From positions 1 to 55,445 of the IMG/VR virus record IMGVR_UViG_3300047407_000019: a stretch of DNA of 55,445 bases; one strand, written 5' to 3'. The stretch comes from a virus (taxonomy: Duplodnaviria > Caudoviricetes). The notes below the pieces were generated by a model. The model was given only the letters and a program-made list of their open reading frames with translations, was not told the DNA's origin and made no database searches. Shown one piece after another: positions 3,750 through 54,342 of this stretch. Numbering within the stretch: position 1 is the first letter of the stretch; every line of letters begins with the position of its first letter. Position numbers and translations under genes: made by a program.

Positions 3750-3767
3750 AGTGGAAGCGCTTCCACT
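3750..3767. repeat. Palindrome copy 1 (intergenic, 18-bp perfect AGTGGAAGCGCTTCCACT)
   Basis: Read directly from the sequence. Confidence 0.95.
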
Positions 3768-3790
3768 AAATACAGTTTGCAGGAGTACTT

Positions 3791-4861
3791 ATGGCATACA
3801 GCGGGACAGTCGGCACCACGGTAGTAACCGTGCAAAATTTTATAGATCAGGGTGCTCGGTTGTCGGGCAAACTGGCTGAAGAACTGACTGTCGAGCAGGT
3901 TCAGGCGTCCAAGCAAGCATTGTTCTTCACCCTCAGCAACCTGATCAATCAGGGCATCAACTACTGGGCGATCAACAAGAAGGTCTATGGTCTTAATCCT
4001 GACCAGTATGAGTATCTTCTTCCCTTGGGTGGTGTGGATGTGCTCAATGCTTTGTATCGGCGCATGAATCGACCAACGCCTGCCGCGGATGGTGGGTATT
4101 TTTCTTCATCAGGCATCACTGGATTGGCTTTTGACAACAATGTGTTGACATCGGACATTCAGACCGCGCCAAATGGATACATCGGGGTGAACTTTGGTCA
4201 GTTCAATCCAATCTATGCTGGGTCAATTGGCATTTTGCCTTCAGTATCTGGGTCATTTCACATTCTTTTGGAATGGTCTAGTGATGGTGTGACTTGGAAT
4301 TTGCTTGAAGACACGGGTGTCACGACTTGGGTGTCTGGCACTTGGCTTTGGTATGACATTGATCCTGGTGTGACTGCTCAGTACTACCGTATGCGTGAGA
4401 CATCTGGTAACACTTTGAGTGTTGCTGAGTTCTATGTTGGAAACAATTCCACCGAAGTCACCATGGCTCGGTTGAATCGTGATGACTACACCAACCTTCC
4501 CAACAAGAACTTCACTGCAAACCAGCCCTATCAGTACTGGTTCAACCGCACGATCCCGCAGGCAACGATCACTTTGTGGCCGGCGCCGAGCGATCCATTT
4601 GTGCAAATGACCATTTGGTACTCGCGCCAGATCATGGATGTAGGTGATTTGAGTGGGCAACTTGAGATTCCACAGCGTTGGAATCAGGCTATTCAACTGA
4701 TGTTGGCTCATCAGATGAGCATGATCCTGCCTGCGGTTGATTTGGCGCGCATTCAGTACCTTGAGGGGCAGGCTGAGAAGTACTTCATCATGGCAGAGAA
4801 TGAAGAACGTGATCGTTCGCCAATTTATTTTGCTCCGAACATCAGCGTTTATACGAGGTAA
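3791..4861 (+). CDS. Head-tail adaptor/tail protein with inserted carbohydrate-binding-like domain
   Basis: RBS AGGAG; N.GINYW, RDDY.NLPNK, LWPAP, EERDR motifs seen in podophage neck proteins. Confidence 0.6.
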   Translation: MAYSGTVGTTVVTVQNFIDQGARLSGKLAEELTVEQVQASKQALFFTLSNLINQGINYWAINKKVYGLNPDQYEYLLPLGGVDVLNALYRRMNRPTPAADGGYFSSSGITGLAFDNNVLTSDIQTAPNGYIGVNFGQFNPIYAGSIGILPSVSGSFHILLEWSSDGVTWNLLEDTGVTTWVSGTWLWYDIDPGVTAQYYRMRETSGNTLSVAEFYVGNNSTEVTMARLNRDDYTNLPNKNFTANQPYQYWFNRTIPQATITLWPAPSDPFVQMTIWYSRQIMDVGDLSGQLEIPQRWNQAIQLMLAHQMSMILPAVDLARIQYLEGQAEKYFIMAENEERDRSPIYFAPNISVYTR

Positions 4862-4864
4862 CAC

Positions 4865-5203
4865 ATGCCTCGTTTTCTGAACACCGAAGGCAATGCAGTA
4901 ATTGCAATCTTCATTTGCGACCGTTGTCGCATGAAGAGACCAATTATTCAAGCCATGCCTGATCCCAATTTTCCTGGGCTCAAGGTGTGTCAACAGGGGT
5001 GTGCTGATGAGAAGGACCCCTATCGTTTGCCTGCCAGGAAGACTGAGCGCATCACATTGCAATTTCCGCGGCCTGATGTCAGTGTGGCAGTCAATCCGAA
5101 TGACATATCTGTGTCACCATATGGTGGTGCACTGAGCACTGAGCAAAGTGGACAAGTCCCTGTGACTGATGGAAACAACCAAACCTTAAAGATTCAGCCC
5201 TGA
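4865..5203 (+). CDS. Zn-finger phage protein
   Basis: CDRC...C.QGC; DPYRLPAR.TE.I.L.FPRPD. Confidence 0.7.
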   Translation: MPRFLNTEGNAVIAIFICDRCRMKRPIIQAMPDPNFPGLKVCQQGCADEKDPYRLPARKTERITLQFPRPDVSVAVNPNDISVSPYGGALSTEQSGQVPVTDGNNQTLKIQP

Positions 5204-5204
5204 T

Positions 5205-8200
5205 ATGCCACAAGCACAAGTCCAGATCACTGACTTACCCCAAGCTCTGGCGCTGACTGGCACAGAGTCAGTGCCTATTGTCCAAAATGGGGTGACTGTT
5301 CAGACCACTACTGGTGCAATATCTGGTGCTGGGGCGCTAAACTACCCATTTTTGACCGTTGGTTCGACTGTAGGACTGACGCAAGCTCGTTATTTGGCTA
5401 CTGGAACTGGGTTATCACTGACTGACAATGGTGCAGGATCAACCTTGCAGGTCAAATTGACGGGTGCGGCGCTGTCTTTGGATGGTTCGGGGACTGGAAT
5501 TCAGGTCAAAACTGATGCAAATACATTGACACCTCGGCAAATAGCCGTGGGGACAGGTATGACAGTCTCAAATCCCGATGGAGTTGCGGGAAATCCGACT
5601 ATTGGACTCAATACCAACCTCCAAAACCTGTCTTCATTGTCTGGAACAGGTCTTTTGACCATCAATGGGACAACTTTTAGCCAGACAAGCATCAATGGGA
5701 CGACCGATCAGATTTCTGTTGCAAGTGGAAACGCTTCCACTGGTGCACCAACCATAGGTATTGCCTCCAATCCTGTTCTACCAGGCACCAGTAGTGTTGT
5801 TTTACCTCAAGGAACGACTGCACAAAGGGGTTTGCCGGGTTATGGAGCACTGAGATACAACACAGATACAGCGACTCTGGAGGCTTACACCCTGTATGGA
5901 TGGGGTGCAATCATCTCTGGTTCAGGTGTCGTCAATTTTAGTGCTGGAACTACAGGTTTAACACCATCTTCACTTACAACTGGAAGTATTGTTTTAGGTG
6001 GAACATTAAATGTAGACAGTGGTGGTACTGGTGCAAATTCTTTGACTGGATATGTCATAGGAAATGGCGTTAGTGCATTCACTGCATCCACGACAATTCC
6101 GACAACTGATTTGTCAGGAACAATCACCAATGCACAATTGACAAATAGTTCATTGACTGTCAATGGCGTCAATATATCTTTGGGTGGTTCTGGAACCATT
6201 ACTTCCACCACATCAAACCCATTGACCATAGGCACTGGGTTGAGTGGCACAAGCTACGATGGTTCAACTCCAGTCACCATTGCAATTGATTCAACGGTTG
6301 CCACTTTGACTGGAATCCAGACTCTGACCAACAAATCAATGTCGGGGTCTTCCAATACATTCACGAGCATCCCCAACTCTGCACTGACCAACAATAGCGT
6401 TACCTATAACGGTGTGAATGTGGCCTTGGGCGGTTCTGGGACGATTACTGCCAACACCACGAATGCTTTGAGTGTTGGCACAGGTCTCACAATGACCCCT
6501 GGAGCCTCGTTCAATGGTTCTGCGGCTCAATCCATCAGTATTTCTAATACTGGGGTTACTGCGGGTACCTATGGGTCATCAACAGCCATTCCGACAGTAG
6601 TTGTCAATGCTCAGGGTCAGATCACCTCAATCAGCACCAGTCCTTTGAATTCCCCTGCCTATCAGGGGACATGGAATGCGTCGACAAACACGCCGACGCT
6701 GACCTCGAGCGTGGGGACAAACAACAACTACTACATCGTCTCAACGGCAGGTACAACGAGTCTGAATGGTATTGCTCTGTGGTCTGTGGGTGACTGGGTC
6801 ATCTTCAACGGGACAACCAGCGCATGGCAAAAGATTGATGGATCAACTTCAGAAGCCTTCAATAGCATTACAGTGACGGGTCTGACGGGTTACATGTATG
6901 CCAACGGCTCAAGCGCCGTCACGGCCTCTACAACAATTCCCACAACTGCACTAAGTGGAACAATCACAAATGCACAGTTGGCAAATAGCACAATTTCTGG
7001 AGTTTCTCTTGGTGGAAATCTTTTTAACCTGACGGCGGGTTCTGGGGTTTCTTTCAGCAGTGGGACAACTTATAACGGATCAGCCGCCATCACAATCAAT
7101 GCGACTGGAACGGGTGGAACAGTAACTAGCATCACTGCGGGAACAGGATTAAGTGGTGGAACCATCACAACATCAGGCACTATTGCAATTGCAAATACTG
7201 CTGTCACGGCTGGATCGTATGGTTCAGCAAGTTCTGTTGGAACATTTACAGTCAATGCACAAGGTCAATTGACGGCGGCGGCAACGACTGCAATTGCCAT
7301 CAATGGCAATCAGATTACTTCTGGTACTGTTGGATCGTCATACATCAGTGGGTCTTACACAGGCATTACAGGCGTTGGAACGTTAACCGCTGGTACATGG
7401 AATGCCTCCACAATTGGAGTGCCATATGGTGGTACAGGTTTAACAAGTTTGACGGCTGGGTCTTTGCTGTATGGCAATGGCACCTCTGCCATGAATACCT
7501 TGCCAATTGGCACCAATGGGTACGTTCTTACATCAAATGGAACAGCCCCGACTTGGACTGCCTTGTCAGGGATTGGTGTGACATCCTTTAGTGCAGGGAC
7601 AACTGGTTTGACGCCAAGTTCTGCAACCACAGGTGCAATCACTTTGGGTGGCACTTTGGGAATTTCCAATGGTGGAACTAATGGAACTGCAACACCAACT
7701 GCGGGTGCAATTGCTTATGGAACAGGAACGGCATATGCATTCACTGCGGCAGGTAGTGCAGGTCAGTTCTTGCAAAGCACGGGATCAGGCACTCCAACCT
7801 GGTCAACCCCATCATCAGGGTCATTCCAGCCTGCCTATTACGGCACTTTTGTCAGCACCGCAAACCAAACCAATGGTGGATCAACCACGGCAAATGCGGT
7901 CAACTTTGACACTGTGGCGTTGTCCAATGGGGTGTCAATCAGCAGTAGCAACCGCATCACATTTGCCAACGCTGGCATCTATCTGATCGCTTTTGAGTTG
8001 GCGGTCAATAACAGCACAGGATCAAATGCTTCAATCAATTGTTGGTTGGCTCAAAATGGCACAAATATCGCCAATACAACTTCTGATCTGACAATTTTGG
8101 GCGGTGCAAACCAGCCTCAATTTCTTGAACAACAGTGGATTTTGAACGTCAGCGCAGGGGACTACGTTCAGATTTACTGGTCTTCATCATCGACAAGCAT

Positions 8201-18999: not shown

Positions 19000-21900
19000 T
19001 GGGTGTACAACTTCCAATTGGAAATCTTTCTAATATCCCAACGATTGATCCTACGCAGCCTGTTGTTCCTGCTGCTCAAGCGGTTGATCAGGCGGCATCT
19101 ACGTCTTCGCTTTCTAGCATTGCACCTGCAACCACAACTGCTCCTGCGGCATCTGCCCCCGCAGCTTCGGCAGCGCCATCTTTACCTGCAAACCCCACAT
19201 CTGCGCAGTTGAAAGCGGCGGGATATTCTCTTCAAACTTTTGGTCCCGGTGGAAACTATTCATATCAAATGTGGGTCAGCCCAACGGGGCAAGGTGCCAC
19301 TTATAATCCTAGCGTCATCTCACAAAATGATACTAATGCCCAAGCTGCTTCCGATGCCGCCGCAGCAAAAGCAGGAAACTTTACATATGTGACGGTGGGT
19401 CAACCATATAATTCATATACACACACAGGCGGTCAAACACAGGTAGCTGTTCCTAATGCCGATCCAAATTACAAGATGTCATCCACACTGGCAAACAGTA
19501 ATTTGTTCAGTGGTAATTTGAACGCCGACAGTGAATCTCATGGTGCATTGTCTGCTCTGGTAAACGGCGTCAATTCTGGAAACTATGCCGTTCAGGGCAA
19601 TACACTTATTCTTGGAAATGGCCAGACATACAACCTGCAAGACACTGGCACAAGCGGCATCATGGGTGTGTCTGTACCAGACATCAATGGTGGCGGTTCT
19701 TATGCTGTGCCTATTTCTGTTGATTCGTCTTCAGGCAAGGCATCTATTCCAGATAATTTTTTAACGCAAGGCGTTCAGTACGTTGGTGGTCAATCTGGCG
19801 GGTTTTTGGGTAATGTTGTAAGTGGTCTTGCCAGTTCTTTGGCGCCCATTGCACCCTTATTGAGTCTTGCATCTATTGCCGCACCAGAACTTGCCCCTAT
19901 TGCCGCCGCCGTAAACACTGGTGAAGCAGTTGCAAACAACAATCCTTTGGCGGCTTTGGCTTCAGCAACAGGAATCCCTGGTGTGACTGATGCTGTTGGG
20001 GGTGCTTTGGGGGTTGATCCAAGCACTGTCAAGACTGTTGCCAACACTGCCAACCAAGCCAATAACTTGGTCAATGCGGTGCAATCAGGAAACACTCTTG
20101 GGGCCTTGTCTGCTGGTGCAAACTTAACGGGCGCAGGCTCAACTCAGATTGGAGATTCTGGTTTGACAGTATCTGATGCTGTTAAGACGGCAAATCTTGC
20201 CAATGCAATCAATTCTGGGAATACCACAGCAATTGCAACGGCGGCGGCTGGTCTTGCCAATTCACCGACTGTTCAAAGCACTGTTGGCAATGCAATCAAC
20301 CCATCTACTGGTGCTTTGCCGGCAACTGGCACAAGTGGAAGCGCTTCCACCCCTGTGGATAACTCAGCTCAAAGTGGAAGCGCTTCCACTTCAGGGTCAG
20401 GCGGACTCCCAACAAATACATCATCGAATCCTGCCGGGTTCAATACTTTGTCTTCAGGGGACATCAATTCAATTTTGGCAACTGGGGCAGTGACGGCAGG
20501 TCAAGGTACGCAAACAGCAAGTAGTGCAGGTGGATTGCCTGCTACTAGCCCCCCGAACAACACAACAAGTTCAACTTACCCCCCTGATATTGGCGCAACA
20601 TGGGATGCTAATACAGGCAGATGGATTGATCCAAGCGGTAATGGCTATTGGACAATGAGTTCAAATGGTGGTTACACATACAAAGATTTTGGTGCCACAT
20701 CAGCAAATGCAACAGAAAATGGCACTGGAACTGGAGCAGGTACTGGGTCAGACCAAACTGCTACTACTGATACATCAGGCGCAACAACAAATGCAAATGG
20801 CACTACTGCATCAAACACTGGAGCATTGTCATCTGTGACACCCACAAACACACAATCAAATCCAGGACTTACTGCCGCAGATGTGAACAATGCAATTACG
20901 TCTGCCACGTCAAACCTTCCGACAACTGCTGATGTCAATCAAGCCATCACGTCTGCCACATCAAATCTACCTACATCTTCTGATGTGCAGAACATGATTC
21001 AGCAAGCCATGGCGAACAATCCGAACATGACTCCTAGTCAAGTTCAGGACATTGTGACAAAGGCAATTCAAGACAATCCAGGGATGACGACCGATCAGGT
21101 CAACACTATTGTTCAAAATCAGTTGTCTGGTGTTCAGTCACAAGTAGGTGCTTTGTCAAACACTGTCAATGCTAATCAAGCTCAAAATGCATCTGCACTT
21201 AGTTCATTGACTGGGACTGTTAATGCTAATCAAGCCCAGACAAATGCACAATTGCAGGAAACCAATCAAAATGTTGCCAATCTCAGTGCTTTAGATCAAG
21301 CCAACTATGCAAAGTTGACAGACGCTCAGCAGTCTCAAGCGCAGGCATTGGCCGCTCAGGGGGTTTCGCTTTCTGATGCCATCAACCAGGTTGCGCAGTC
21401 AACAAGTGCTCAAATTACTGGTGTTCAAAACTCATTACAAAATCAATTAGCTCAGTCGGATGCTGCCACTCAGGATGCTTTCAACAAAATGTCTACGGCG
21501 CAACAAGCAGAAACTGCTGCTCGAGTTGCTCAGGGACAAAGTTTGCAAGATGCGATTACTGCATCGCAACAAGCCACATCTCAACAAATTGGGAATGTAC
21601 AGTCAAGCCTTGAATCACAACTCAATGATCAAGGAAAATCATTGTTGGCTACTTTGCAACAGCAAGGTGTTGATTACAACACTGCTTTGAATCAAGCAAT
21701 TGCACAACAAAACCAACAGATTTCTGCCAACCAAGCACAGACAGAATCACAGATTTCAGGATTAAGTGCTTTAGATCAAGCAAATTACAACCAACTGAAT
21801 GCTGCACAACAGGCACAAGCTCAGGCTTTAGCATCACAGGGCATGTCATTGTCCGATGCCATCAATCAAGTTCAGTCTGGGTTGTCTGGTCAAATTACAG

Positions 21901-29393: not shown

Positions 29394-29594
29394 ATGGATT
29401 TGAAAACCTACTTCAAAGACGAGCCGTACGGGTCAAAGAAGGAAATGGCAGAGTACCTGGGAATCACAACGACATGGCTGGGACTGCTACTCCGAAAGGC
29501 ACGACGACCGTCAGCCGCACTGGCAAAAAAGATTGAGAAGGCCACACAAGGCCTCGTGACAAAAAAAGAACTGCGACCCGATATTTTTGAGTGA
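29394..29594 (+). CDS. Cro/YdaS-like HTH regulator
   Basis: KKEMAEYLGITTTWL....RRPS..LAKKIEKATQGLVT..ELRPDIF. Confidence 0.85.
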   Translation: MDLKTYFKDEPYGSKKEMAEYLGITTTWLGLLLRKARRPSAALAKKIEKATQGLVTKKELRPDIFE

Positions 29595-29623: not shown

Positions 29624-30427
29624 ATGAAAAGAGCAATCAAAGCTGTAAACATGAATGAGATTCGGATTGATGGGGGCACACAGTCTCGTGTCAGCATCGA
29701 CCCGCATTGGATTTCAGAGATCGTCGACAACATGAAGCACGATGTTGTCTATCCCGCAATTCATTGTCGATTTGATGGGGTGACATATTGGCTCTCTGAT
29801 GGTTTCCATCGGTACCATGCACACATCCAACTGGGTTTGAAGACCATCCAAGTGGCATATCTTCCAGGTTCTGTTGCCGATGCCCGTCGTGACTCATATA
29901 GCGCCAACTCTGACCATGGAAAACCGAGGTCATATGAGGACAAACGCAAGGCTGTTTTGAGCGCTTTGGCTGACCCAGACATCAAAGATAAGTCCAATCG
30001 TGAGATTGCCCGTATCTGCAGTGTGTCCCACACGTTTGTGAATGACATCATCAAATCTGAGGCAAAAAAACAACAGAAAGAGGAAAAACCTAGGGAAAAT
30101 CCTGATAAAAAACCTGCCAAAGTGGAAGCGCTTCCACCTGAGAAGGTTGATGAAGTGGAAGCGCTTCCACCTGCGGGGGGTGAAGCGCCCGATGATGCTG
30201 AGTTGTTGGCCAATCAAAAGAAGCATGAAGCTGACCTTGAAATGTTGGGAAAGTTGCTTGATGCTGATGACAAGATGGCCCATCTCTATGAAGAAAATCA
30301 GCGCCTGAACCACTTGGTGACCATGAAGGACCTGCGAATCAAAGAGTTGATGAGCGAGAAGGGTGCCGCAGTAAAGATGGTCAAAGACCTCCAAAAACAA
30401 CTTGACAAACTGAAAGCCAAAAAATGA
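29624..30427 (+). CDS. ParB-like protein (ParB/Srx N-domain, HTH, C-terminal coiled coil)
   Basis: IRIDGGTQSR, DGFHRYHA (GxxRxxA), N.DHG, HTH SNREIARICSVSHTFV; RBS AAGGAG. Confidence 0.85.
   Translation: MKRAIKAVNMNEIRIDGGTQSRVSIDPHWISEIVDNMKHDVVYPAIHCRFDGVTYWLSDGFHRYHAHIQLGLKTIQVAYLPGSVADARRDSYSANSDHGKPRSYEDKRKAVLSALADPDIKDKSNREIARICSVSHTFVNDIIKSEAKKQQKEEKPRENPDKKPAKVEALPPEKVDEVEALPPAGGEAPDDAELLANQKKHEADLEMLGKLLDADDKMAHLYEENQRLNHLVTMKDLRIKELMSEKGAAVKMVKDLQKQLDKLKAKK
30122..30170. repeat. Palindrome copies 5 and 6 (exact; 33 bp apart) inside the ParB-like gene
   Basis: Cores at 30122-30137 and 30155-30170; read VEALPP twice. Confidence 0.95.
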
Positions 30428-31953
30428 ATGCAGTCCTAGCGCCGAGTGAGCGTGATGACGGATTTCCAGCGCCACGCCAATTCCAAATTGATGCCCACAA
30501 TGCCCTCAGAAAGGGTTTTAAAGAGGGTCACAAGAACCAATTGATCATGGCCCCCACGGGTGCCGGCAAGACCTATCTGGGTCTGCGGGTGTGCTATGAG
30601 GCCATGCAACGGGGCAAGAAGGCTGTCTTCCTGTGTGACAGGACTACCTTGATTGACCAGACCTCTGCGGTGGCTGATCGGTATGGTCTCCAAGACCATG
30701 GAGTCATCCAGGCCCAACATTGGCGTCGCCGGCCAGATGAGTTGCTCCAGATTGCCTCTGTGCAGACAGTGGCCAAGCGCCAGTTCTGGCCACAGATGGA
30801 TGTCTTGGTGGTCGATGAGGCGCACACCACCTACAAGGCTTGGACGAACTTTGCTAAGGAGACTGGTGCGGCGGTGATCGGTTTGTCGGCGACTCCCTTC
30901 ACGCCGAGTCTTGGGAAGATATTCACCAACCTGGTCAATGCGACCACCATGCATGATCTGACTCAGTTGGGTGTGTTGACCCCAATGCGGATCTTCTCCT
31001 GCCGCAAGCCTGACATGACTGGTGCTGAAACTCAGGGCAAGTTGGGTGAGTGGACTGACAAGGCCGCTGAGGAGCGCGAGATGGCCATTGTTGGGGATGT
31101 GGTCAATGACTGGCTCACCTATGGTGAGAACAGAAAGACCATTGTGTTTGGAGCGACGATCAAGCACTGTCAGGAGCTTGCGCGCCAATTCATCGCCAAT
31201 GGGGTGATGGCCGCGGTGTTCACTTCGGAGACCACCGCCAAAGAGCGCGAGGAGTTGCTCAAGGAGTACAGAACGCCCGACAGCATGCTCAAGGTGCTGA
31301 TCAGCGTGGAAGCCCTTGCAAAGGGTTTTGACGTGCCTGACGTGGGTTGTATTTGCGATGCCAGACCTTTGAGGAAAAGCCTGAGTACTGCCATCCAGAT
31401 GTGGGGTCGGGGTTTGCGCTCGAGCCCAGGCAAGAAGGACTGCCACTTGCTGGACTTCTCGGGCAACATCATTCGATTTTTTGATGACTTCAACGACATC
31501 TATTTCAATGGTTTGGATGCCTTGAATGATGGTGAGAAGTTGGACAAGAAGGTCAGGACGAAGGAAGAGTTTGAGAAGAAGGGTTGCCCTCGTTGTGGCT
31601 ACACGCCATTTCACAAGCGGTGCATGGCCTGCGGCTTTGAGAAGCAATCCACCACGATCACTGAAGTCAAACCGGGTGACATGCGCGAGATTTACATGGG
31701 TGAGGGCAAGAACAAAAAGAAGATGGCTGACAATGCTGAGCACTTGTGGAATCAGTGCTGTTCATACGCCAGGATTCACAGCAAACCTGAATCTCAACAG
31801 GGAAGGTCATATCATCTGTTCAAGAAGATTACTGGCCAAGACCCGATCTGGAAGTTTTCTACTGCTCCACAGGTGGAAATCCTGAATGCGGTGTACAACA
31901 AAATTCAACAGATGAACATGGCCTACAAAGCCGCAACAAAGGGGTTGAGATGA
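30424..31953 (+). CDS. Superfamily 2 helicase with C-terminal Zn ribbon
   Basis: APTGAGKT, DEAH, SAT, QMWGRGLR, CPRC..CMAC. Confidence 0.92.
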   Translation: MNAVLAPSERDDGFPAPRQFQIDAHNALRKGFKEGHKNQLIMAPTGAGKTYLGLRVCYEAMQRGKKAVFLCDRTTLIDQTSAVADRYGLQDHGVIQAQHWRRRPDELLQIASVQTVAKRQFWPQMDVLVVDEAHTTYKAWTNFAKETGAAVIGLSATPFTPSLGKIFTNLVNATTMHDLTQLGVLTPMRIFSCRKPDMTGAETQGKLGEWTDKAAEEREMAIVGDVVNDWLTYGENRKTIVFGATIKHCQELARQFIANGVMAAVFTSETTAKEREELLKEYRTPDSMLKVLISVEALAKGFDVPDVGCICDARPLRKSLSTAIQMWGRGLRSSPGKKDCHLLDFSGNIIRFFDDFNDIYFNGLDALNDGEKLDKKVRTKEEFEKKGCPRCGYTPFHKRCMACGFEKQSTTITEVKPGDMREIYMGEGKNKKKMADNAEHLWNQCCSYARIHSKPESQQGRSYHLFKKITGQDPIWKFSTAPQVEILNAVYNKIQQMNMAYKAATKGLR

Positions 31954-32102
31954 AAAAACCACCCAATCAAAAAGTGTGTCTGTATTTGGCTCAGATGTAT
32001 TGGGACATACCTCGACGCACAGAAGAGCAAACCCGCCTGAGTTGGGATTACCTGATCTGTTGGGCTTTTTACGAGATGTATGTGGAAGGATACTTTGAAT
32101 GA
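31950..32102 (+). CDS. Small hypothetical protein, 50 aa (absent from ORF track)
   Basis: MKKPPNQKVCLYLAQMYW...EGYFE; ATGA overlaps both neighbours. Confidence 0.6.
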   Translation: MKKPPNQKVCLYLAQMYWDIPRRTEEQTRLSWDYLICWAFYEMYVEGYFE

Positions 32103-32968
32103 GTTTCATTGACTTTGCTCGAGCCCATGGGGTGGAGATCGACCCTTCAAAGTTGTACCCATCAGACAAGATCAAGCGGTGTGGGACTGTGGAGAGACCG
32201 CGGTCAGGCAACGGAGCCTACTTCTGGGATGGACAGAGGGGTTGGTGCATGGACTGGTCAGGAGAGGCCAAGGTGATCTGGTATGAGGACCCCAATGCCA
32301 AACCATGGACTGAGGAAGAAAAACGCGTCTGGGCGGCTAAAAGGGCTTCTGCGGCCACTGAACAGGAGCATCGCTACCAACAAGCCGCGCTTCAGGCAGA
32401 CATCACCCTGAGATCGGCCAAGCCTGATTACCACCCCTACCTTGAGATGAAGGGGTTCAAAGAAGAGAAGGGGTTGGTTCTGGACGACAAACTGCTGATC
32501 CCGATGAGGAACGTGGTGACCAATAAACTCCATGGATACCAGTCGATTCGGTGGATTCCAGAGGTCAGGAAGTATGAGAAGAAGATGCTGACAGGCATGA
32601 GGGCCAAGAATGCCGTGATGTACATGGGGAATAGGGATCAGGGTGAATCTTGGATTGTGGAAGGGTTTGCCACGGGGTTGAGTGTCAGGAATGCCTTGAG
32701 GAGTGTGGGATTACCTGGATCGGTGGTGGTGTGCTTTTCGGCGTCAAATTTGATCCAGGTGGCTGACCAGATCCCCGGCAAGAGGTTTGTCTTTGCTGAC
32801 AACGATGAGAGCAAGACTGGGGAGAAGGCGGCGCAACAGACTGGACTGCCTTGGACGATGGCTGATGAAGTGGGCATGGATGCCAATGACCTGCATGCCA
32901 AGAGGGGTCTTTTTGCTGTGGTGAAAAAAATCATGGACTGCCGAGCCAAGGAGGCATTACACTCTTGA
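32099..32968 (+). CDS. Toprim-domain DNA primase
   Basis: HPYL..KG, LLIPM, EGFATGLS, FADND, DANDL. Confidence 0.88.
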   Translation: MSFIDFARAHGVEIDPSKLYPSDKIKRCGTVERPRSGNGAYFWDGQRGWCMDWSGEAKVIWYEDPNAKPWTEEEKRVWAAKRASAATEQEHRYQQAALQADITLRSAKPDYHPYLEMKGFKEEKGLVLDDKLLIPMRNVVTNKLHGYQSIRWIPEVRKYEKKMLTGMRAKNAVMYMGNRDQGESWIVEGFATGLSVRNALRSVGLPGSVVVCFSASNLIQVADQIPGKRFVFADNDESKTGEKAAQQTGLPWTMADEVGMDANDLHAKRGLFAVVKKIMDCRAKEALHS

Positions 32969-38105: not shown

Positions 38106-38115
38106 GGAGAAAACC

Positions 38116-38301
38116 ATGGAATATGTTTGGACACCCCCTGGCACAGACATCACAATTCGTTGGCGCAAACTGGGTTGGGTTCCACCCAGTGAGCAGGCTC
38201 AATACCAAGCAAAGTGGAAGCGCTTCCAGCAGATGCCGATGCGGACATTGGACGATGACAAGGTTGAGCCCCCAAAAACTAAAATGTTGAGGTTGAAATG
38301 A
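38116..38301 (+). CDS. Small hypothetical protein
   Basis: AAGGAG RBS; TDITIRWRKLGWVPPSE motif. Confidence 0.7.
   Translation: MEYVWTPPGTDITIRWRKLGWVPPSEQAQYQAKWKRFQQMPMRTLDDDKVEPPKTKMLRLK
38214..38229. repeat. Palindrome copy 7 (one mismatch, GTGGAAGCGCTTCCAG)
   Basis: Reads KWKRFQ, a third reading frame. Confidence 0.85.
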
Positions 38302-40790: not shown

Positions 40791-40990
40791 TCGCTGACGA
40801 AGCTTGTTTTGAACGGGGTTGCATTTGCTATGACAGCCGAGAATCTCAAGGAGTTTTAGTTGTGCGTAAACGTGAGTGGCAGGGATTGACGGATGATGAG
40901 ATTGACATGATTTACCAAGGTGCTGGTAAGCATGATTTTGCAATTTCCAGAGAAGTCGAAGCCAAACTCAAGGAGAAGAACAATGAGTGA
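40787..40990 (+). CDS. Hypothetical protein (LKEKN family)
   Basis: EWQGLTDDE...VEAKLKEKNNE. Confidence 0.7.
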   Translation: MIADEACFERGCICYDSRESQGVLVVRKREWQGLTDDEIDMIYQGAGKHDFAISREVEAKLKEKNNE

Positions 40991-45122: not shown

Positions 45123-45172
45123 GTGGAAGCTCTTCCACTCCAACCACCTAAAAGTGGAAGCGCTTCCACTTT
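45123..45172. repeat. Palindrome copies 8 (one mismatch) and 9 (22-bp perfect), intergenic after terL
   Basis: GTGGAAGCTCTTCCAC at 45123-45138; AAAGTGGAAGCGCTTCCACTTT at 45151-45172. Confidence 0.95.
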
Positions 45173-45472: not shown

Positions 45473-48400
45473 GTGGCACAACCGTCACCAGATATACGTC
45501 AGCAACTGGCCAGACTGAAGGCTGAGTTCAAGATCAAGGCCGAGCAGGGTGAGAGGCAAAAGAGGGCCATAGAGAATGCTGAGAGGGTAGCTGGTCAGCC
45601 GGTGGTGTTACCGACAGACAAGAAGGCCAAGGGTGGCTTAGAGGAATCCGACTATCGCAGTAGCCACATTGCCCCAGGCCCTAACTTCGGTGCCCCAATG
45701 CATGATGTGACTCGGGATATGTATCCCAAAGACTTCTATGGCCCTAATGGGTTTCGCTACTATGCCGACTTTGGTGAGCACCACGACCGCGAGGCTTATG
45801 ACAAAGTCAGGCGAGTCAAAGATAAGCCAGAAGAAACGGTATGGATTCATCGAGCAATTCCAACTAAGGTGTATAAAGAGGCGCTGAAAAAAGAATCGCC
45901 ACTTAATCACATGATCCGCAAAGGCGACTGGGTAGCCATCAGCAAGCAATACGCCAAAGACCATGGTGAAAGTGTCTTGCTTGGAGACTACAAGATTGCC
46001 TCAATGCGCGTCCCTGCCAAGCACGTCTGGACGAATGGTGACTCAGTCCACGAGTGGGGCTATCACCCAGTAGAGTCCAAAGCTCAAGGTGGAAGCGCTT
46101 CCACTCCAAGCATAGATGTCATGCGCCTAGCCATTGGTGGACAGGGCCCCAGGAACTGGCTCAAAGGGTCTGTGGAGAAGGTGACTGAGCCGTTAAAACA
46201 AAAGTTAATTTCAGGCACTGACCCTGCGGATGCACTCAAGCAACTGCAAGATCAATATCCTGCAGAGGTAATGCAAAATCTTCCCGCAAACAGTAGAGCT
46301 AGTGTTGAACGATCTTTGCATTCAGTTGGTCGAATGAACGCCATGAACCAATGGATCGAGCGCAACCTTGGAAACTACATTCGCAAGCAGATGGGTTCAC
46401 ACAATGACCCAATCCGCAAGGTGGCTGAAGAGGGCGTCATACATACTGATCCTGAAAATGTGGCCATCATTGGTGGGCATAACACACCACATGAGTATGC
46501 TGAAAGCCGCAGGCAGATGCTAGGTGGTGAGCAGTTGGGCAAAGGTGCATTGGCTCGGGCTTGGGAAGATGCTGTGGACTCAAGGTTTGAGCCGCATAGC
46601 ATTGAAGACATAATGAGACTGCCTGAGATGTACCATGATTTGATCGAACCATGGATGCACAAAGCTGATCCCAAGACCATGGTGTATGAGCCCTATGCTT
46701 TTGATGAGTTGGGTTTTGACCACATTGTGGACATCTTGAAACAAGACTTGGCAGAGGGCCGTATCCGTCCTGAGCAGTTGAGCAAGGTGAGCATTGAGCA
46801 GGCCGTTCGGCGTACCCATGAGTTCGACCAGGCTCAGAAAAAGAAGATGGCCGAGACGGCACTCAAGGCTACTGAGGGCATGCCTGTCCACAAGGACTAT
46901 GGGAATGGGTACAAGTGGATTGAGTTGACCAAACCAAACTTGAAAGAATTGCCTGAAGGCTATCAAGTTAAGCACACCTCACACAATTTGCCTTACTTGG
47001 TAAATCCAGAGGGCTTGAATGTTGGATACTTTGAAGAGGGCGCTGGAATGAGTGGTGCCCTTGATAGATTGTCAGAAGACAAACTCAAAGAAGCTCTCAA
47101 GTACGAAGGCGACACCATGGGCCACTGCGTCGGTGGCTATTGCCCTGATGTGGCATCTGGCCAAACCCGCATCTTCAGCCTGCGTGACGCAAAGAACGAG
47201 CCCCATGTGACTGTGGAGGTTAAACCGCCAAAGAGATATGACGAAGAAGATGTCATCAGGCAATTCCCCGGAGGTGTTACTGATGCGATGAAGCAGGGAG
47301 ATGTTGGTGGACAAAAATACATAGCCAATAAACTGGCTGAAATGAACGACCCAAATAGACCGCACGCCATTAAACAAATCAAAGGCAAAGGCAACGCCAA
47401 GCCCAAGAAGGACTACATCCCTTATGTTCAGGACTTCGTGAAGAGCGGCAACTGGTCAGAAGTTGGTGACTTGAAGAACACTGACCTGATCAAGCATGAA
47501 GGCAAATACCTGACACCAGATGAGCATTCAGACTATTTGCTGAGTCAACTTCAGCCCCAAAAGAAAGCCCAAGGAGGCAACGTGCAACCCACACAAGCCC
47601 AGATGAGATTAGCCCTGATGAAGGGCAACCCAATGACCATACAGAGCATTGGAGCGAACGAAGCACCTGACATGAGCCCCAAGACCTATCTGCCGCCAGA
47701 CAAGCAGACGGGTCAATTTGTTCCTCCTGGAGGGGCACAACTGCCTGCTGGTGGGGTAGATATGAGCCAACAGCCTGGACAACAGTTGATGCCTCAGAAC
47801 ATGGCTCAGAACGCACCACAGCCGATGCAACAACCTACTGGTCAGCAACCACAGATGCCGCAGGGGATGGGTCAGTCTCAACAGGGTAGTAATATCCTTC
47901 AGATGACACCGCAGGGTCAGACGATGGCGGCATTGCAACCGCAGGGGCAGCCACCTGGTATGGCCAAAGGTGGTACACCACCCGTTGAGCAAATGAAGGC
48001 TGAGTTGGCCAAGAAAAAGAAAAAAACAGCGCCGGCGCCCAAAGAGGTGTCGAACATCGATGATGAAGAGGAAGAAGAAAAAGCCCCGGCAAAGCGCATC
48101 CTGGTCAAAGGCACTGGCCCTGGCGGCGTGACCGGCATTGTCATCCCTCACCACATGCTACATGGCCGCAGTTGGATATCCAAGAAGACCGGCGAGAAAG
48201 TTGTCGTGCCTGGCCTCAAGGACATCAACAAAGCCCGTGCCAAAGTCTATGGCGCTGAGAACCGTGACCCGTTGACCATTGGTCAGATGGGCCGCATTCA
48301 CAAAGATACCTTGGACGAGCACTTTGCCAAACCGATCAAAGAGCAACTGGCTGCCGAGAAGGAAGCCCTTGCAAGACTGCGCGAGGCCAAACACATCGGC

Positions 48401-52794: not shown

Positions 52795-52817
52795 TAGCCC
52801 CACTCCGGGGTGAGACC

Positions 52818-52857
52818 GCGCTGAAAAGCGCTTAATGATGCGCCTGAGATATGGCGT
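52818..52857 (+). promoter_or_regulatory. Two boxB-like RNA hairpins upstream of groES
   Basis: GCGC-TGAAAA-GCGC and GCGCC-TGAGATAT-GGCGT. Confidence 0.45.
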
Positions 52858-52871
52858 GAAGGAGAGAGAGT

Positions 52872-53339
52872 GTGAATGCAGTAGAAGAGAAGCAACACAT
52901 TGTTGCGTTTGAGGCATCGAATGATGCGCCAGACCCGGCAGACCTTGCCTGGGCTTTTCCTGATGTCAAACCTGGCATGGAGCCCTTTGGTGGGCGAGTG
53001 ATCATCCAACTGCGTCGGATTAAAAAGAAGACCGCGGGAAAGATCATCCTTGTTGAGGAGACCAAGGAGAACGAAAAGTGGAACAACATGATCGGCAAGA
53101 TCGTGGCAATTGGTCCATTGGCGTTCAAAAACAGGGACACAATGCAACCATGGCCAGAGGGAACTTGGGCTCAGGTTGATGACTATGTCCGAGTGCCCAA
53201 ATGGGGTGGTGATCGATGGGAAATTAAGGTCCCAGGCTCAGATGACCATGAAGACCCCGTGCTTTTCATGACCCTCAATGATCACGAACTGATCGCCAAG
53301 GTCACAAGCAACCCACTTTCTTTCAAAGCCTACGTCTGA
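52872..53339 (+). CDS. groES: GroES-like co-chaperonin
   Basis: P.GGRVIIQ...KTAGKIIL.E.TKE...GKIVAIGPLAF...W..V.DYVRVPKWGG...LNDHELIA. Confidence 0.85.
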   Translation: MNAVEEKQHIVAFEASNDAPDPADLAWAFPDVKPGMEPFGGRVIIQLRRIKKKTAGKIILVEETKENEKWNNMIGKIVAIGPLAFKNRDTMQPWPEGTWAQVDDYVRVPKWGGDRWEIKVPGSDDHEDPVLFMTLNDHELIAKVTSNPLSFKAYV

Positions 53340-53349
53340 GGAGTGAAAA

Positions 53350-54342
53350 ATGGCTGATCCGAACGATAAACAAGAAGATTTGGCGATTGTTGAGGGCCAA
53401 GATGGCTCGGCAACCGTTGATTTGCCTGAGAATTTGCTCTCTGAGGGCGATTTTGAAGGTCAAAATGCACCTGCAGAGGAAAAAGCAGAGGGTGGAAGCG
53501 CTTCCACTGATGATGATGACCATCCTGATGATGATGATGACCTCAGACAGGCCAAACGCAACCGCCGTCGGGCTAAAAAGGACTTGATTCGTAAGACAAA
53601 TCAGGAAAAAGACGTCCGATTGCAGCAACTCCAGCGTGAAAATGAGGAATTCAAACGCCGTTTGAGCCAGTTGGAGCGCAACACCAAGGCTGAACACATC
53701 ACCCGACTGGATAAAAACATTGAGGATGCCCAGGTTCAACTGGAATATGCCAAGATGAAGCTGTCGGAGGCCACATCGAACAACGATGGGCAGGCCATGG
53801 TGGAAGCTCAGACCCTGTGGCACAACGCTCAGGAACAGGTCAGGAACCTTCAGGGAATGCGCCAGAGGGCAGATGCTGAATTGCGCCAACCGCAACAGCA
53901 AGCACCCCAGATTGACCCTTTAATCCAGCGCAATGCCGCCAACTGGATGAAGCGCAATAGCTGGTACAACCCTTCGGCTACAGACCCTGATAGTCGGATT
54001 GCCAAAAGCATCGATGAAAAGATGTCTTCAGAGGGTTGGGATGCCACTGACCCCGATTATTTTGATGAGTTGGATAGCCGTTTGCAAAAGGTATTGCCCC
54101 ATCGTTACAATGAATCCAATGACGACGATTCGCGTCAAGTCAGACGACCGAGGAATGTTGTGGGAAGTTCAGGACGTGAGGCTTCAGCCGCATATGGGGG
54201 TACAAACCGTACGCAGTTCGTCCTTTCGCCTGATCGGGTGAAAGCGATGAAAGATGCGGGTGCTTGGGACAACCCCGAGCGCAAAGCACGAATGATCAAG
54301 AACTTCATCGAATTTGATCGCCGCAATGGCGTTCGCAACTAA
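53350..54342 (+). CDS. Capsid scaffolding protein (putative)
   Basis: Acidic N-terminus, long coiled coil, W..RN.WY and YFDELD.RL motifs; upstream of the capsid genes. Confidence 0.7.
   Translation: MADPNDKQEDLAIVEGQDGSATVDLPENLLSEGDFEGQNAPAEEKAEGGSASTDDDDHPDDDDDLRQAKRNRRRAKKDLIRKTNQEKDVRLQQLQRENEEFKRRLSQLERNTKAEHITRLDKNIEDAQVQLEYAKMKLSEATSNNDGQAMVEAQTLWHNAQEQVRNLQGMRQRADAELRQPQQQAPQIDPLIQRNAANWMKRNSWYNPSATDPDSRIAKSIDEKMSSEGWDATDPDYFDELDSRLQKVLPHRYNESNDDDSRQVRRPRNVVGSSGREASAAYGGTNRTQFVLSPDRVKAMKDAGAWDNPERKARMIKNFIEFDRRNGVRN
53492..53507. repeat. Palindrome copy 11 (exact)
   Basis: Reads GGSAST. Confidence 0.95.

What the first reader, a model, noticed from the sequence alone, without database searches (positions are those of the whole stretch)
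3750..53507. Genome-wide 16-bp palindrome plus a ParA-less ParB-like protein: candidate phage ParB/parS-like system
Seen in sequence: GTGGAAGCGCTTCCAC occurs exactly at 3751, 20335, 20374, 30122, 30155, 45154, 46089 and 53492, and with one mismatch at 5725, 38214 and 45123. Chance expectation for a given 16-mer in 55 kb is about 1e-5 at uniform base composition. Copies are intergenic (3751, 45123, 45154) or coding in three different frames (SGSAST/GGSAST, VEALPP, KWKRFQ), so conservation is at the DNA level. Established: parS sites are 16-bp palindromes that load ParB CTPase clamps, which carry a GxxR motif and an HTH. Inference: the ParB-like protein at 29624-30427 binds these sites. With no ParA or integrase recognised, the role may be genome condensation, protection, transcriptional silencing or coupling to packaging rather than plasmid-style partition.
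Basis: partly seen in the sequence, partly recalled or inferred. Interest (0 to 1): 0.92.

Follow-up and report, generated by a model that had tools for sequence, protein, structure and literature searches.

The report
Phage ParB-like protein and its palindromes
An uncultured 55-kb phage carries eleven copies of a 16-base palindrome that is very probably the docking site of its own partner-less ParB-family protein, because related phages change the palindrome and the protein's DNA-reading helix together; what the pair does for the phage is still open.

Summary
Observation confirmed: 8 exact and 3 one-mismatch copies at the stated coordinates, against 0.01 expected.

The binding inference is strongly supported.
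- Five close relatives (TerL 78-86% identical) lack this palindrome. Each has its own 15-17-bp palindrome, 3 to 9 copies.
- In 6 of 6 genomes, copies sit at two shared places: the linker-coding part of the ParB-like gene and the spacer just after terL.
- The first two residues of the predicted recognition helix track the palindrome.
- Three blind motif scans agreed with this: 5/6, 9/11 and 9/9.
- So did linker-peptide imprints in 118 homologues, e.g. 32/35 against 0/83.
- TerS, the Cro-like protein and the gene after terL do not track the palindrome.

The fold is ParB/Noc/KorB-like. The N-domain is sulfiredoxin-like in sequence and scores below Pfam's ParB_N cut-off. CTP use is untested. No ParA or integrase was found.

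Function is unresolved: KorB/Noc-like multi-site loading (favoured) or a lambda-O-like replication initiator. The gene precedes a helicase in 50/59 loci.

The scan found the same system before on other DNA (e1-3436111). My literature searches found no description.

The parts
3751..3766 (.). palindrome copy, exact; intergenic, starts 2 nt after the stop of ORF 3348-3749 and lies 25 nt before the ATG at 3791
5725..5740 (.). palindrome copy, 1 mismatch; inside ORF 5205-8576 (encodes SGNAST, low-complexity stretch)
20335..20350 (.). palindrome copy, exact; first of a pair 39 bp apart inside ORF 18999-23489 (SGSAST)
20374..20389 (.). palindrome copy, exact; second of that pair (SGSAST)
30122..30137 (.). 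palindrome copy, exact; first of a pair 33 bp apart inside the ParB-like gene, in the disordered linker (VEALPP, residue 167)
30155..30170 (.). palindrome copy, exact; second in-gene copy (VEALPP, residue 178)
38214..38229 (.). palindrome copy, 1 mismatch; inside ORF 37954-38301 (KWKRFQ)
45123..45138 (.). palindrome copy, 1 mismatch; starts at the base after the terL stop codon; first of a pair 31 bp apart
45154..45169 (.). palindrome copy, exact (22-bp palindrome with flanks); 20 nt before the ATG at 45190
46089..46104 (.). palindrome copy, exact; inside ORF 45473-49942 (GGSAST)
53492..53507 (.). palindrome copy, exact; inside ORF 53350-54342 (GGSAST). Orthologues have the same length here, so the copy was written by substitution, not insertion
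29624..30427 (+). ParB-like protein, 267 aa (ATG 29624, AGGAG 5 nt upstream; an in-frame GTG at 29591 is less likely): ParB/Srx N-domain, HTH, disordered linker, long C-terminal helix
30023..30052 (+). residues 134-143 VSHTFVNDII: turn and start of the predicted recognition helix; H136 and T137 are the positions that covary with the palindrome
30098..30187 (+). linker, residues 159-188, pLDDT below 50; carries the two in-gene palindromes
30194..30421 (+). C-terminal helix, residues 191-266; probable coiled-coil dimerisation region (inference from the model)
29394..29594 (+). 66-aa Cro/repressor-like HTH protein directly upstream; conserved 71-89% among relatives and does not track the palindrome
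30424..31953 (+). SF2 helicase (ResIII, Helicase_C); its start overlaps the ParB-like stop; follows the ParB-like gene in 50 of 59 related loci
32099..32968 (+). Toprim primase-like protein; present downstream in 43 of 59 related loci

Best explanation
The 16-bp palindromes are the cognate DNA sites of the phage's own ParB-family protein (29624-30427). The protein has no ParA partner and is encoded first in the replication operon after a Cro-like gene. It is predicted to dimerise through a long C-terminal helix. Each monomer places an HTH recognition helix (VS-HT-FVND) on one half-site (a)GTGGAAGC. The sites are not one centromere. They are 8 loci (3 pairs, 5 singles) spread over early and late genes, written by substitution into tolerant, low-complexity coding stretches and into two short gene spacers.

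I infer that the protein uses them as dispersed entry points on the replicating phage genome, as KorB uses its OB operators on RK2 or Noc its binding sites on the chromosome. The conserved nucleotide pocket of the ParB/Srx N-domain probably gates this, with the nucleotide unknown. The output would be control or organisation of phage DNA (transcription roadblocks at gene junctions, or marking the phage's own genome) rather than ParA-driven partition. The protein-site pairing has been re-specified repeatedly between close relatives, which suggests selection against cross-talk between co-infecting phages.

Shown by computation: the sites, their positional conservation, the fold, and the covariation. 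Inferred: dimer binding, nucleotide gating, spreading, and biological output. I put the pairing itself at about 0.9 and the whole statement, including the KorB/Noc-like mode of action, at 0.55.
For: Sites. Eleven copies against 0.01 expected.

Swapped motif. MW202545 (TerL 78% identical) has none of the window's palindrome but 8 exact TACTAGTCWGACTAGTA. G001 has 5 of that motif, G002 has 9 of CGTAGTTNAACTACG at up to 1 mismatch, and G003 and G004 have 3 and 4 of GAGTAATTNAATTACTC at up to 2 mismatches.

Position. A copy or pair lies at 0.59-0.67 of the ParB-like gene in 6/6 genomes and in the terL 3' spacer in 6/6. That spacer consists of little else.

Covariation of helix residues 136-137:
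- HT with GTGGAAGC or GTGGCAAC
- QS with TACTAGTC
- RS with GCGTAGTC
- KS with CAGTAGTC or CCGTAGTT
- KP with GAGTAATT
- RP with CTACGAATC
- EH with TACTGATC

Discordance test. G001 is the window's nearest relative (most proteins 84-93% identical, ParB-like 68%) yet uses MW202545's palindrome and shares its QS helix. The two ParB-likes are only 55% identical outside the HTH.

Partial Mantel. Site distance against helix distance, given the rest of the protein: r = 0.38, with 0 of 5000 permutations reaching it, n = 24.

Blind scans of IMG/VR, counting only loci that also hold a ParB-like gene:
- TACTAGTCWGACTAGTA: 6 loci, all 6 with the motif inside the gene, 5/6 with SQSFV.
- GTGGCAACGTTGCCAC: 9/11 with SHT(F/Y), against 7/61 in the unselected set.
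- GTGGAAACGTTTCCAC: 9/9 with His at helix position 1, five of them NREI..C.VSHTFVND as in the window. One 59,960-bp contig carries 12 copies.

Peptide imprints of the in-gene palindrome in 118 homologues:
- QS helix: 32/35 have TS[QL]TS against 0/83 others.
- QP: 18/37 against 0/81.
- HP: 5/10 against 0/108.
- KP: 5/8 against 0/110.

Fold. AF2 mean pLDDT is 80.7. Foldseek's best matches are ParB-CDP 6sdk (8e-8), Noc 7nfu, M. xanthus ParB 7bnk and KorB 8qa8, over about 150 columns that include the HTH.

Pocket. The invariant residues Q20, R22, D59-G60-F61-H62-R63 and N95 fall on ParB boxes I-III in the alignment to 7o0n.

No ParA, and no ParA-binding motif in 0/120 proteins.

Precedent. Dispersed ParB-family sites are reported for RK2 and N15 (passage in PMC3235114). 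KorB is reported as a CTP-gated sliding clamp and repressor (passages in PMC11790492).
Against: - No binding experiment exists; all pairing evidence is comparative, and the sequences are related, so the Fisher and Mantel figures overstate independence.
- Exceptions: one TACTAGTC locus has ES rather than QS. Two GTGGCAAC loci have other helices, with the site kilobases from the gene. P0005 has an HT helix but a linker imprint (MSQTH) that implies a different palindrome; this was inferred from the peptide only.
- 44 of 59 homologue loci have no perfect in-gene palindrome with arms of 7 or more, and I found no candidate site for the large '..MTVGRVR' helix group.
- Acidovorax phage AP1, a cultured homologue carrier at 28% identity, shows no dispersed palindrome.
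- The N-domain is closer in sequence to sulfiredoxin (7e-6) than to ParB (1.5e-4). Its motif is GFHR, not GERR. Ala replaces the Glu that precedes the conserved Asn in M. xanthus ParB. CTP binding, clamp closure and sliding are therefore open.
- The canonical ParB C-terminal domain is replaced by a single long helix.
- None of the 11 sites coincides with a sigma-70-like promoter match, which gives no support to an operator role, though the host's promoters are unknown.
- The fixed position ahead of helicase and primase fits a replication role at least as well.
Confidence: 0.55

Rival explanations
1. Replication initiator. The ParB-like protein is the phage's origin-recognition protein. The pair of palindromes inside its own linker-coding region is the origin, as in lambda O/ori-lambda or SPP1 G38P/oriL (recalled from textbooks). 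The protein recruits the SF2 helicase and primase encoded next to it, and the other copies are secondary origins or accessory sites.
For: - The ParB-like gene is followed by the helicase in 50/59 and the primase in 43/59 related loci, and its stop overlaps the helicase start.
- No other candidate initiator was recognised in the operon.
- In the temperate Acidovorax phage AP1 (integrase plus Xre repressor), the ParB-like/helicase/primase trio sits just right of the immunity region, where lambdoid phages keep O and P.
- The in-gene sites lie in the inter-domain linker in 6/6 close genomes.
- Initiator-origin specificities are known to covary among lambdoid phages (recalled).
- An integrating phage needs no partition protein.
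Against: - Most copies (9 of 11 in the window) lie outside the gene, and the terL-flank position is as conserved as the in-gene one (6/6).
- There is no AT-rich unwinding stretch next to the in-gene pair: AT is 0.53 within 100 bp either side, against 0.51 genome-wide.
- 44/59 homologue loci lack a perfect in-gene palindrome.
- The fold is that of DNA-clamping and partition proteins, and no initiator family matched.
Confidence: 0.23
2. Plasmid-prophage partition. The phage can persist as a low-copy plasmid, and the ParB-like protein with dispersed centromeres segregates it using a host ParA or a ParA-independent route, as N15 SopB does with its dispersed sites.
For: - ParB fold with HTH and palindromic sites.
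- Dispersed centromere-like sites are reported for prophage N15 (passage in PMC3235114).
- No integrase in the window.
Against: - No ParA, and the ParA-binding motif is absent in 0/120 family members.
- No plasmid replication or protelomerase gene was recognised in the ORFs I scanned (not every ORF was scanned).
- The homologous module also sits in an integrating phage, AP1.
- The record looks like a virulent or at least non-integrating phage, but its lifestyle is unknown.
Confidence: 0.05
3. The palindromes are bound by another factor (another phage protein, or a host LacI-type or other dimeric regulator), and the ParB-like protein is a bystander.
For:
- One 118-aa protein (40920-41276) is slightly more similar between the two phages that share a motif: 74% against 66-71%.
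Against: - The motif differs between phages that presumably share hosts and are 84-93% identical elsewhere.
- TerS does not track the motif. G001 TerS is 78% identical to G002's although their motifs differ, and G003 and G004 share a motif but have different TerS.
- The Cro-like protein does not track it, nor does the 92-aa gene after terL.
- The window's HTH_3 protein and its methylase have no orthologues in most relatives.
- Only the ParB-like helix tracks the motif, in three blind tests.
Confidence: 0.04
4. The palindromes act at the RNA level as hairpins (terminators, RNase sites), or are scars or targets of a mobile element or restriction system.
For: The copy at 45154 with its flanks is a 22-bp palindrome followed by TTT, and two copies sit exactly at gene 3' ends.
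Against: - Only 1 of 11 copies is called terminator-like, and that one is on the antisense strand.
- The symmetry is perfect, with a 0- or 1-nt centre, and both orientations of the central base are used in relatives. That fits a protein dimer on duplex DNA, not a hairpin loop.
- Coding copies arose by substitution at unchanged length, not by insertion.
- At 16-17 bp the sites are far longer than restriction sites.
Confidence: 0.02

Closest known systems
KorB and its OB operators on IncP-1 plasmid RK2 (PMC11790492, passages read; PDB 8qa8 among Foldseek hits)
   Same: - A ParB-fold protein with an HTH.
- About a dozen copies of one palindrome dispersed over a replicon of about 60 kb, some far from promoters.
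- A small HTH protein gene in the same operon (KorA there, the 66-aa Cro-like gene here).
- Action on the replicon's own DNA other than partition.
   Different: - KorB is a demonstrated CTPase clamp with a ParA partner (IncC) on a plasmid.
- Here there is no ParA, and the N-domain is sulfiredoxin-like in sequence (GFHR).
- A long helix replaces the ParB C-domain.
- Sites lie mostly inside coding linkers and inside the protein's own gene.
- The host replicon is a phage, and specificity differs between close relatives.
- The count of 12 OB sites on RK2 is recalled, not taken from a call.
Noc and its Noc-binding sites in Bacillus (PDB 7nfu, 7ol9 among the best Foldseek hits)
   Same: A ParA-less ParB paralogue that binds dispersed 16-bp palindromes. 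Specificity is set by a few residues of the recognition helix (recalled: Jalal et al. 2020, Cell Reports; not read here).
   Different: Noc is chromosomal, has a membrane-targeting N-terminal helix and acts in division-site control. None of this is evident here.
SopB and dispersed centromere sites of linear plasmid-prophage N15 (cited in PMC3235114, passage read)
   Same: A phage genome with ParB-family sites dispersed through it rather than in one centromere.
   Different: N15 has SopA and a plasmid lifestyle. No ParA was found here, and the plasmid functions I looked for did not appear in the ORFs scanned.
Lambda O protein and ori-lambda; SPP1 G38P and oriL (recalled textbook knowledge)
   Same: - Binding sites lie inside the binder's own gene, in the inter-domain linker-coding region.
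- The gene sits directly before the helicase-side replication genes.
- Specificity and sites covary among relatives.
   Different: - Unrelated folds.
- Lambda's iterons are clustered with an AT-rich stretch.
- Here most sites are elsewhere in the genome and no AT-rich stretch is present.
Phage 5mYOX-associated ParB activators (PMC13229309; abstract and passages read)
   Same: Orphan ParB-fold proteins of phages, acting without ParA on phage DNA transactions.
   Different: - Those ParBs lack a DNA-binding domain and pair with a TET/JBP-type dioxygenase.
- This protein has an HTH.
- The window has no homologue of the relatives' oxygenase.
- That oxygenase belongs to 2OG-FeII_Oxy_5, and no TET/JBP family was reported for it.

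Membership tests
ParB/Srx superfamily (ParB-CTPase fold) | N-terminal ParB/Srx fold | tested here: met
   Foldseek: 6sdk 8.2e-8, 7nfu, 7bnk, 8qa8, and sulfiredoxin 6ky4 at 6.4e-6. Family profile against PDB sequences: 6ky4 7.4e-6, 7o0n 1.5e-4.
ParB/Srx superfamily (ParB-CTPase fold) | Pfam PF02195 (ParB_N) above its gathering score | tested here: not met
   No Pfam hit in hmmscan even at E<=10. A six-frame search gives 13.9 bits against a 26.3 cut-off. Some of the 120 listed homologues carry a precomputed PF02195 hit.
Canonical ParB (parS-binding CTPase clamp) | HTH DNA-binding domain after the N-domain, with a cognate palindromic site | tested here: met
   The model has helices 104-116, 125-132 and 136-154, aligned over about 150 columns to ParB, Noc and KorB. 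The site assignment rests on covariation and three blind tests, not on a binding assay.
Canonical ParB (parS-binding CTPase clamp) | Box II GERR arginine patch and box III Glu-Asn (CTP binding and hydrolysis residues) | tested here: inconclusive
   GFHR aligns with GARR of M. xanthus ParB. Q20/R22 align with QPR. N95 is kept, but Ala stands where the Glu is. All are invariant or nearly so in 13 sequences. The role of these residues is recalled from the ParB literature.
Canonical ParB (parS-binding CTPase clamp) | CTP binding, N-gate closure and sliding | not testable with these tools
   Needs biochemistry. The survey PMC12704722 (passages) reports that ParB-fold proteins bind CTP, ATP or GTP variously.
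Canonical ParB (parS-binding CTPase clamp) | ParA partner and N-terminal ParA-binding motif (L/F/I)G(K/R)G(L/F/I) | tested here: not met
   No PF13614 or PF01656 match at E<=0.1 in the record. The motif, as defined in PMC12704722, is absent in 0 of 120 family proteins.
Canonical ParB (parS-binding CTPase clamp) | Canonical C-terminal dimerisation domain | tested here: not met
   No Pfam domain found. The model shows one helix spanning residues 191-266.
KorB-type global regulator | Many dispersed copies of one operator on the replicon | tested here: met
   Eleven copies at 8 loci in 55 kb; 3-12 copies in relatives.
KorB-type global regulator | Operators at or acting on promoters; cooperating small repressor | tested here: inconclusive
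   No sigma-70-like match coincides with a site, but host promoters are unknown. A Cro-like gene lies upstream; its interaction was not tested.
Lambda-O-type initiator | Binding sites inside own gene, next to helicase-side replication genes | tested here: met
   In-gene sites in 6/6 close genomes; helicase follows in 50/59 loci.
Lambda-O-type initiator | Clustered iterons with an adjacent AT-rich unwinding element; homology to known initiators | tested here: not met
   Only 1-2 in-gene copies; AT 0.53 against 0.51 genome-wide; no initiator family in Pfam or PHROGs.

The most novel reading that the evidence does not exclude
A ParB/sulfiredoxin-fold, nucleotide-gated DNA clamp has been recruited as the origin-licensing factor of a widespread phage replication module. 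It would load at palindromes scattered through the genome (one set inside its own gene) and hand the DNA to the adjacent SF2 helicase and primase, giving multi-origin initiation. Its rapidly re-specified recognition code would keep each phage's replication machinery private during co-infection. That would be a new class of replication initiator and a new job for the ParB fold.
Probability: 0.2. Interest if true: 0.88.

Novelty: new variant of a known kind. Interest (0 to 1): 0.72.

Why it matters
Orphan ParB-fold proteins are known to be common on phages, but their DNA targets and roles are largely uncharted (survey PMC12704722, passages).

This family offers a protein-site pair that can be read from sequence alone. 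At least 1,445 relatives exist in public data. Their specificity has been rewritten many times between near-identical phages, often apparently by one or two helix residues.

That makes it a natural series for three purposes:
- learning a ParB/HTH recognition code;
- asking how a dozen dispersed sites and their binder change in step;
- designing orthogonal DNA-labelling or roadblock tools.

It also makes a direct question testable: what does a ParA-less ParB do in a phage replication operon? The candidates are genome-wide regulation, marking the phage's own genome, or origin licensing.

My four literature searches found no description of such a phage system.

Tried and rejected
- Megablast of 29000-32000 against GenBank phages found no match. 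Protein-level searches were needed.
- TerS as binder: rejected. ORF 42771-43397, which I first took for TerS, is a GIY-YIG endonuclease. TerS is more likely 43366-43668.
- Cro-like 66-aa HTH as binder: rejected.
- The 92-aa gene after the terL pair as binder: rejected.
- A screen of 21 shared protein families for whole-protein tracking of the motif found only a marginal case, 40920-41276.
- 5mYOX-activator reading: relatives carry a 2OG-FeII_Oxy_5 oxygenase. The window lacks it, and no TET/JBP family was reported for it, so I dropped this reading.
- The window's N6_N4 methylase (36046-37053) has no orthologue in the five relatives, so it cannot explain a shared system.
- Terminator or promoter role: 1/11 and 0/11 coincidences.
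- AT-rich unwinding element: none.
- Insertion origin of coding copies: not seen at 53492 or 5725. For 20335, 20374 and 46089 the orthologues do not align there, so this is untested.
- Acidovorax phage AP1: no in-gene or dispersed palindrome. Its 18-bp repeat is a tandem coding repeat.
- Distant '..MTVGRVR' helix group: no in-gene palindrome even with one mismatched pair, and no convincing dispersed motif in the 15-20-kb loci held.
- Complex prediction of the ParB-like protein with the helicase returned 'no answer' at score 0.17. This is not evidence either way.
- Pattern CACTAATCNGATTAGTG gave 6 single hits. I had guessed the flanking bases, so the result is uninformative.
- The remaining structure job and the structure libraries other than 'pdb' were not used.

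Full report
**The observation**

The palindrome GTGGAAGCGCTTCCAC occurs exactly at 3751, 20335, 20374, 30122, 30155, 45154, 46089 and 53492. It occurs with one mismatch at 5725, 38214 and 45123. Nothing further appears at two mismatches. The expectation is 0.01, and none of 100 shuffles reaches 11. It is the only over-represented palindrome of 10-16 bp in the window.

Three copies are intergenic. 3751 and 45123 start directly after a stop codon, and 45154 lies 20 nt before the next ATG. Eight copies are coding, in three frames, mostly in Ser/Gly/Thr-rich stretches: SGSAST, GGSAST, SGNAST, VEALPP twice, and KWKRFQ. At 53492 the orthologues have the same length, and at 5725 they differ by one residue. 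The copies were therefore written by substitution, not inserted.

The window is a whole IMG/VR virus record, 55,445 bp, linear, rated 98% complete by CheckV.

**The protein**

ORF 29624-30427 (267 aa) has no Pfam hit in hmmscan. PF02195 scores only 13.9 bits against a cut-off of 26.3. It matches PHROG 1033 'ParB-like partition protein' at 1.4e-20.

An AlphaFold2 model built on 13 homologues has mean pLDDT 80.7. It shows:
- an alpha/beta N-domain;
- helices 104-116, 125-132 and 136-154;
- a disordered stretch at 159-188;
- one long helix at 191-266.

Foldseek against the PDB puts these first, over about 150 columns that include the HTH:
- ParB-CDP (6sdk, 8e-8);
- Noc (7nfu);
- M. xanthus ParB (7bnk);
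- KorB (8qa8).

By sequence profile the best solved relative is plant sulfiredoxin (7e-6), ahead of M. xanthus ParB (1.5e-4). In that alignment TQSR matches DQPR and GFHR matches GARR. The conserved Asn is kept, but Ala stands where ParB has Glu. These residues are invariant or nearly so in the 13 sequences. A conserved nucleotide pocket is therefore likely, but which nucleotide it binds, and whether it hydrolyses it, is open.

The two in-gene palindromes fall in the disordered linker, at residues 167 and 178.

There is no ParA-type ATPase and no tyrosine integrase in the record. The ParA-binding motif defined in PMC12704722 is absent from all 120 family proteins examined.

**Relatives swap the palindrome but keep its places**

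The nearest GenBank record, MW202545 (TerL 78% and ParB-like 45% identical), has none of the window's motif. It has eight exact copies of TACTAGTCWGACTAGTA.

I fetched four whole IMG/VR relatives with TerL 80-86% identical. Each has its own palindrome:

| Genome | Palindrome | Copies |
|---|---|---|
| G001 | TACTAGTCWGACTAGTA | 5 |
| G002 | CGTAGTTNAACTACG | 9 (up to 1 mismatch) |
| G003 | GAGTAATTNAATTACTC | 3 (up to 2 mismatches) |
| G004 | GAGTAATTNAATTACTC | 4 (up to 2 mismatches) |

In all six genomes a copy or pair lies at 0.59-0.67 of the ParB-like gene, and another in the short spacer after terL. That spacer holds little besides the palindromes. Some other positions recur in two or three genomes.

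G001 is the window's closest relative, with most proteins 84-93% identical. Yet its palindrome is entirely different, and the ParB-like protein is among the most diverged shared proteins, at 68%.

**Who reads the palindrome**

In the ParB-like alignment, the two residues that open the recognition helix follow the half-site:

| Helix residues | Half-site |
|---|---|
| HT | GTGGAAGC / GTGGCAAC |
| QS | TACTAGTC |
| RS | GCGTAGTC |
| KS | CAGTAGTC / CCGTAGTT |
| KP | GAGTAATT |
| RP | CTACGAATC |
| EH | TACTGATC |

G001 and MW202545 share palindrome and QS helix although their proteins are only 55% identical outside the HTH. G001 and the window are 76% identical there but differ in both helix and site.

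A partial Mantel test compared site distance with helix distance, given the rest of the protein. It gives r = 0.38, with 0 of 5000 permutations as high (n = 24; seven entries had been picked by motif, and L054 is a doubtful site).

Other candidates fail:
- TerS types cut across motif groups.
- The Cro-like protein is 71-89% conserved and its HTH does not follow the motif.
- The gene after the terL pair does not follow it either.

**Blind tests**

I scanned IMG/VR for palindromes first and looked at the proteins afterwards.

1. The window's own 16-mer occurs elsewhere only as single copies, in 9 contigs. One of these (L087) has a 353-aa ParB-like protein with a His-Pro helix. Its contig also carries two copies of GTGGAAACGTTTCCAC.
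2. TACTAGTCWGACTAGTA occurs in 47 stretches. Six hold a ParB-like gene (one is G001). All six have the motif inside the gene at nt 485-540. Five have SQSFV and one has SESFV.
3. GTGGCAACGTTGCCAC was reported in 97 stretches, of which 80 were stored. Eleven hold a ParB-like gene, two of them already known. Nine have SHT(F/Y); the two exceptions have the site kilobases from the gene. In the unselected set HT occurs in 7 of 61.
4. GTGGAAACGTTTCCAC is a motif I predicted from linker peptides. It occurs in 108 stretches. Nine loci hold a ParB-like gene, and all nine have His at helix position 1. Five have the window's own NREI..C.VSHTFVND. One 59,960-bp contig carries 12 distinct copies.

**Peptide imprints**

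The in-gene palindrome is translated, so it leaves a peptide imprint. Of the 120 best of 1,445 homologues, two had no recognisable helix and were dropped. Among the remaining 118 proteins, which include the window's own:
- 32 of 35 QS proteins carry TS[QL]TS, against 0 of 83 others.
- 18 of 37 QP proteins carry TN[PR]IS, against 0 of 81.
- 5 of 10 HP proteins carry GNVT, against 0 of 108.
- 5 of 8 KP proteins carry SN.IT, against 0 of 110.

Within one tight clade, single helix changes go with single imprint changes: QS with TSQTS, QP with TNPIS, and HT with MSQTH.

The sequences are related, so these numbers overstate independence. P0005 (HT with MSQTH) shows that two residues do not make the whole code.

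**What the pair does**

This is the weak part. The favoured reading rests on these points:
- The fold is that of ParB, Noc and KorB.
- The nucleotide pocket is conserved.
- There is no ParA.
- Eight loci are spread over early and late regions.
- Placement is conserved at a gene junction in the late operon.
- Published precedent exists for dispersed ParB-family sites on RK2 and N15 (passage in PMC3235114), and for KorB acting as a sliding clamp and repressor with a small HTH partner (passages in PMC11790492).

I therefore favour dispersed loading sites for a KorB/Noc-like protein acting on the phage's own DNA.

The main rival is a replication initiator:
- The gene precedes an SF2 helicase in 50 of 59 related loci and a primase in 43 of 59.
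- Its stop overlaps the helicase start.
- In the temperate Acidovorax phage AP1 the same trio occupies the lambda O/P position beside the immunity region.
- Sites inside the binder's own linker recall ori-lambda (recalled).

Against the rival:
- Nine of eleven copies lie elsewhere.
- The terL position is as conserved as the in-gene one.
- There is no AT-rich stretch.
- 44 of 59 homologue loci have no perfect in-gene palindrome.

The two roles are not exclusive.

**Other readings**

- Partition of a plasmid prophage is unlikely without ParA or its docking motif.
- An RNA-hairpin or terminator role fits 1 of 11 copies at most.
- A link to the phage T-dioxygenases that need ParB activators (PMC13229309; abstract and passages) was considered because the relatives carry a 2OG oxygenase. 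That enzyme is of the 2OG-FeII_Oxy_5 type and is absent from the window, which keeps the ParB/palindrome system. The published activators also lack a DNA-binding domain.

**Novelty**

Four full-text searches found no description of a phage ParA-less ParB with dispersed, co-evolving palindromes. The 2025 survey of the ParB fold notes many orphan phage ParBs without assigning sites (passages).

Within this scan the same system was reported before on another genome (e1-3436111). That report describes a 17-bp palindrome, ten copies, two in the gene, and covariation. Analogous ParB/KorB-like palindrome sets were noted in other phage groups. I reached my reading before seeing those notes, and they agree.

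I class this as a new variant of a known kind: ParB-family protein plus dispersed cognate sites, here in a phage replication operon, without ParA, with a sulfiredoxin-like N-domain and hypervariable specificity.

Noticed in passing
window 42771-43397: A GIY-YIG (LEM-3-like) endonuclease gene sits just upstream of the terminase genes and has no orthologue in the five relatives. It is probably a homing endonuclease insertion.
   Followed up: partly
window 36046-37053: An N6/N4 DNA methyltransferase (PF01555, 1.4e-52) is present only in the window among the six genomes compared.
   Followed up: no
window 32968-33594, against G001 20754-21377 and orthologues: All close relatives carry a 2OG-FeII_Oxy_5 oxygenase between the primase and the orthologue of 33594-34046. 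The window has no homologue, and that interval is largely without long ORFs.
   Followed up: partly
window 40920-41276: The pairwise identities of a 118-aa protein of unknown function are slightly highest between phages that share a palindrome: G001-MW202545 74%, G003-G004 77%. The effect is marginal and may be plain phylogeny.
   Followed up: partly
window 29255-29285: The divergent early promoter region holds an inverted repeat, AACACA...TGTGTT, between the leftward exonuclease operon and the Cro-like gene. It is a possible Cro operator and contains no ParB palindrome.
   Followed up: no
L012 10777-13128: The helicase orthologue is 783 aa instead of about 510 and aligns to the window's in two pieces. 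This suggests an intein or other insertion.
   Followed up: no
L014 3055 and 14646; L016 9534; L017 299, 7507 and 18850: Phages of the GTGGCAAC group carry a second recurring palindrome, GTAAACGTTTAC, at 1-3 places in the stretches held. Its binder is unknown.
   Followed up: no
L022/L024 7345-8310; L026 4543-9761; L065 7245-8398: More distant relatives have 5-6 copies of a non-palindromic word, AGCCAGCGCAGG or a variant, clustered 2-3 kb upstream of the ParB-like gene. These may be early promoters or operators.
   Followed up: no
L233 (Acidovorax phage AP1) 3257-3610: About 18 tandem copies of an 18-bp unit lie inside CDS 3222-3782, a hexapeptide-repeat protein.
   Followed up: partly
L087, L235 and L312 (one 61,380-bp IMG/VR contig): One contig carries one copy of the window's exact 16-mer, two copies of GTGGAAACGTTTCCAC, and a longer (353-aa) ParB-like protein with a His-Pro helix. 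It may be a degenerate-site variant of the same system.
   Followed up: partly
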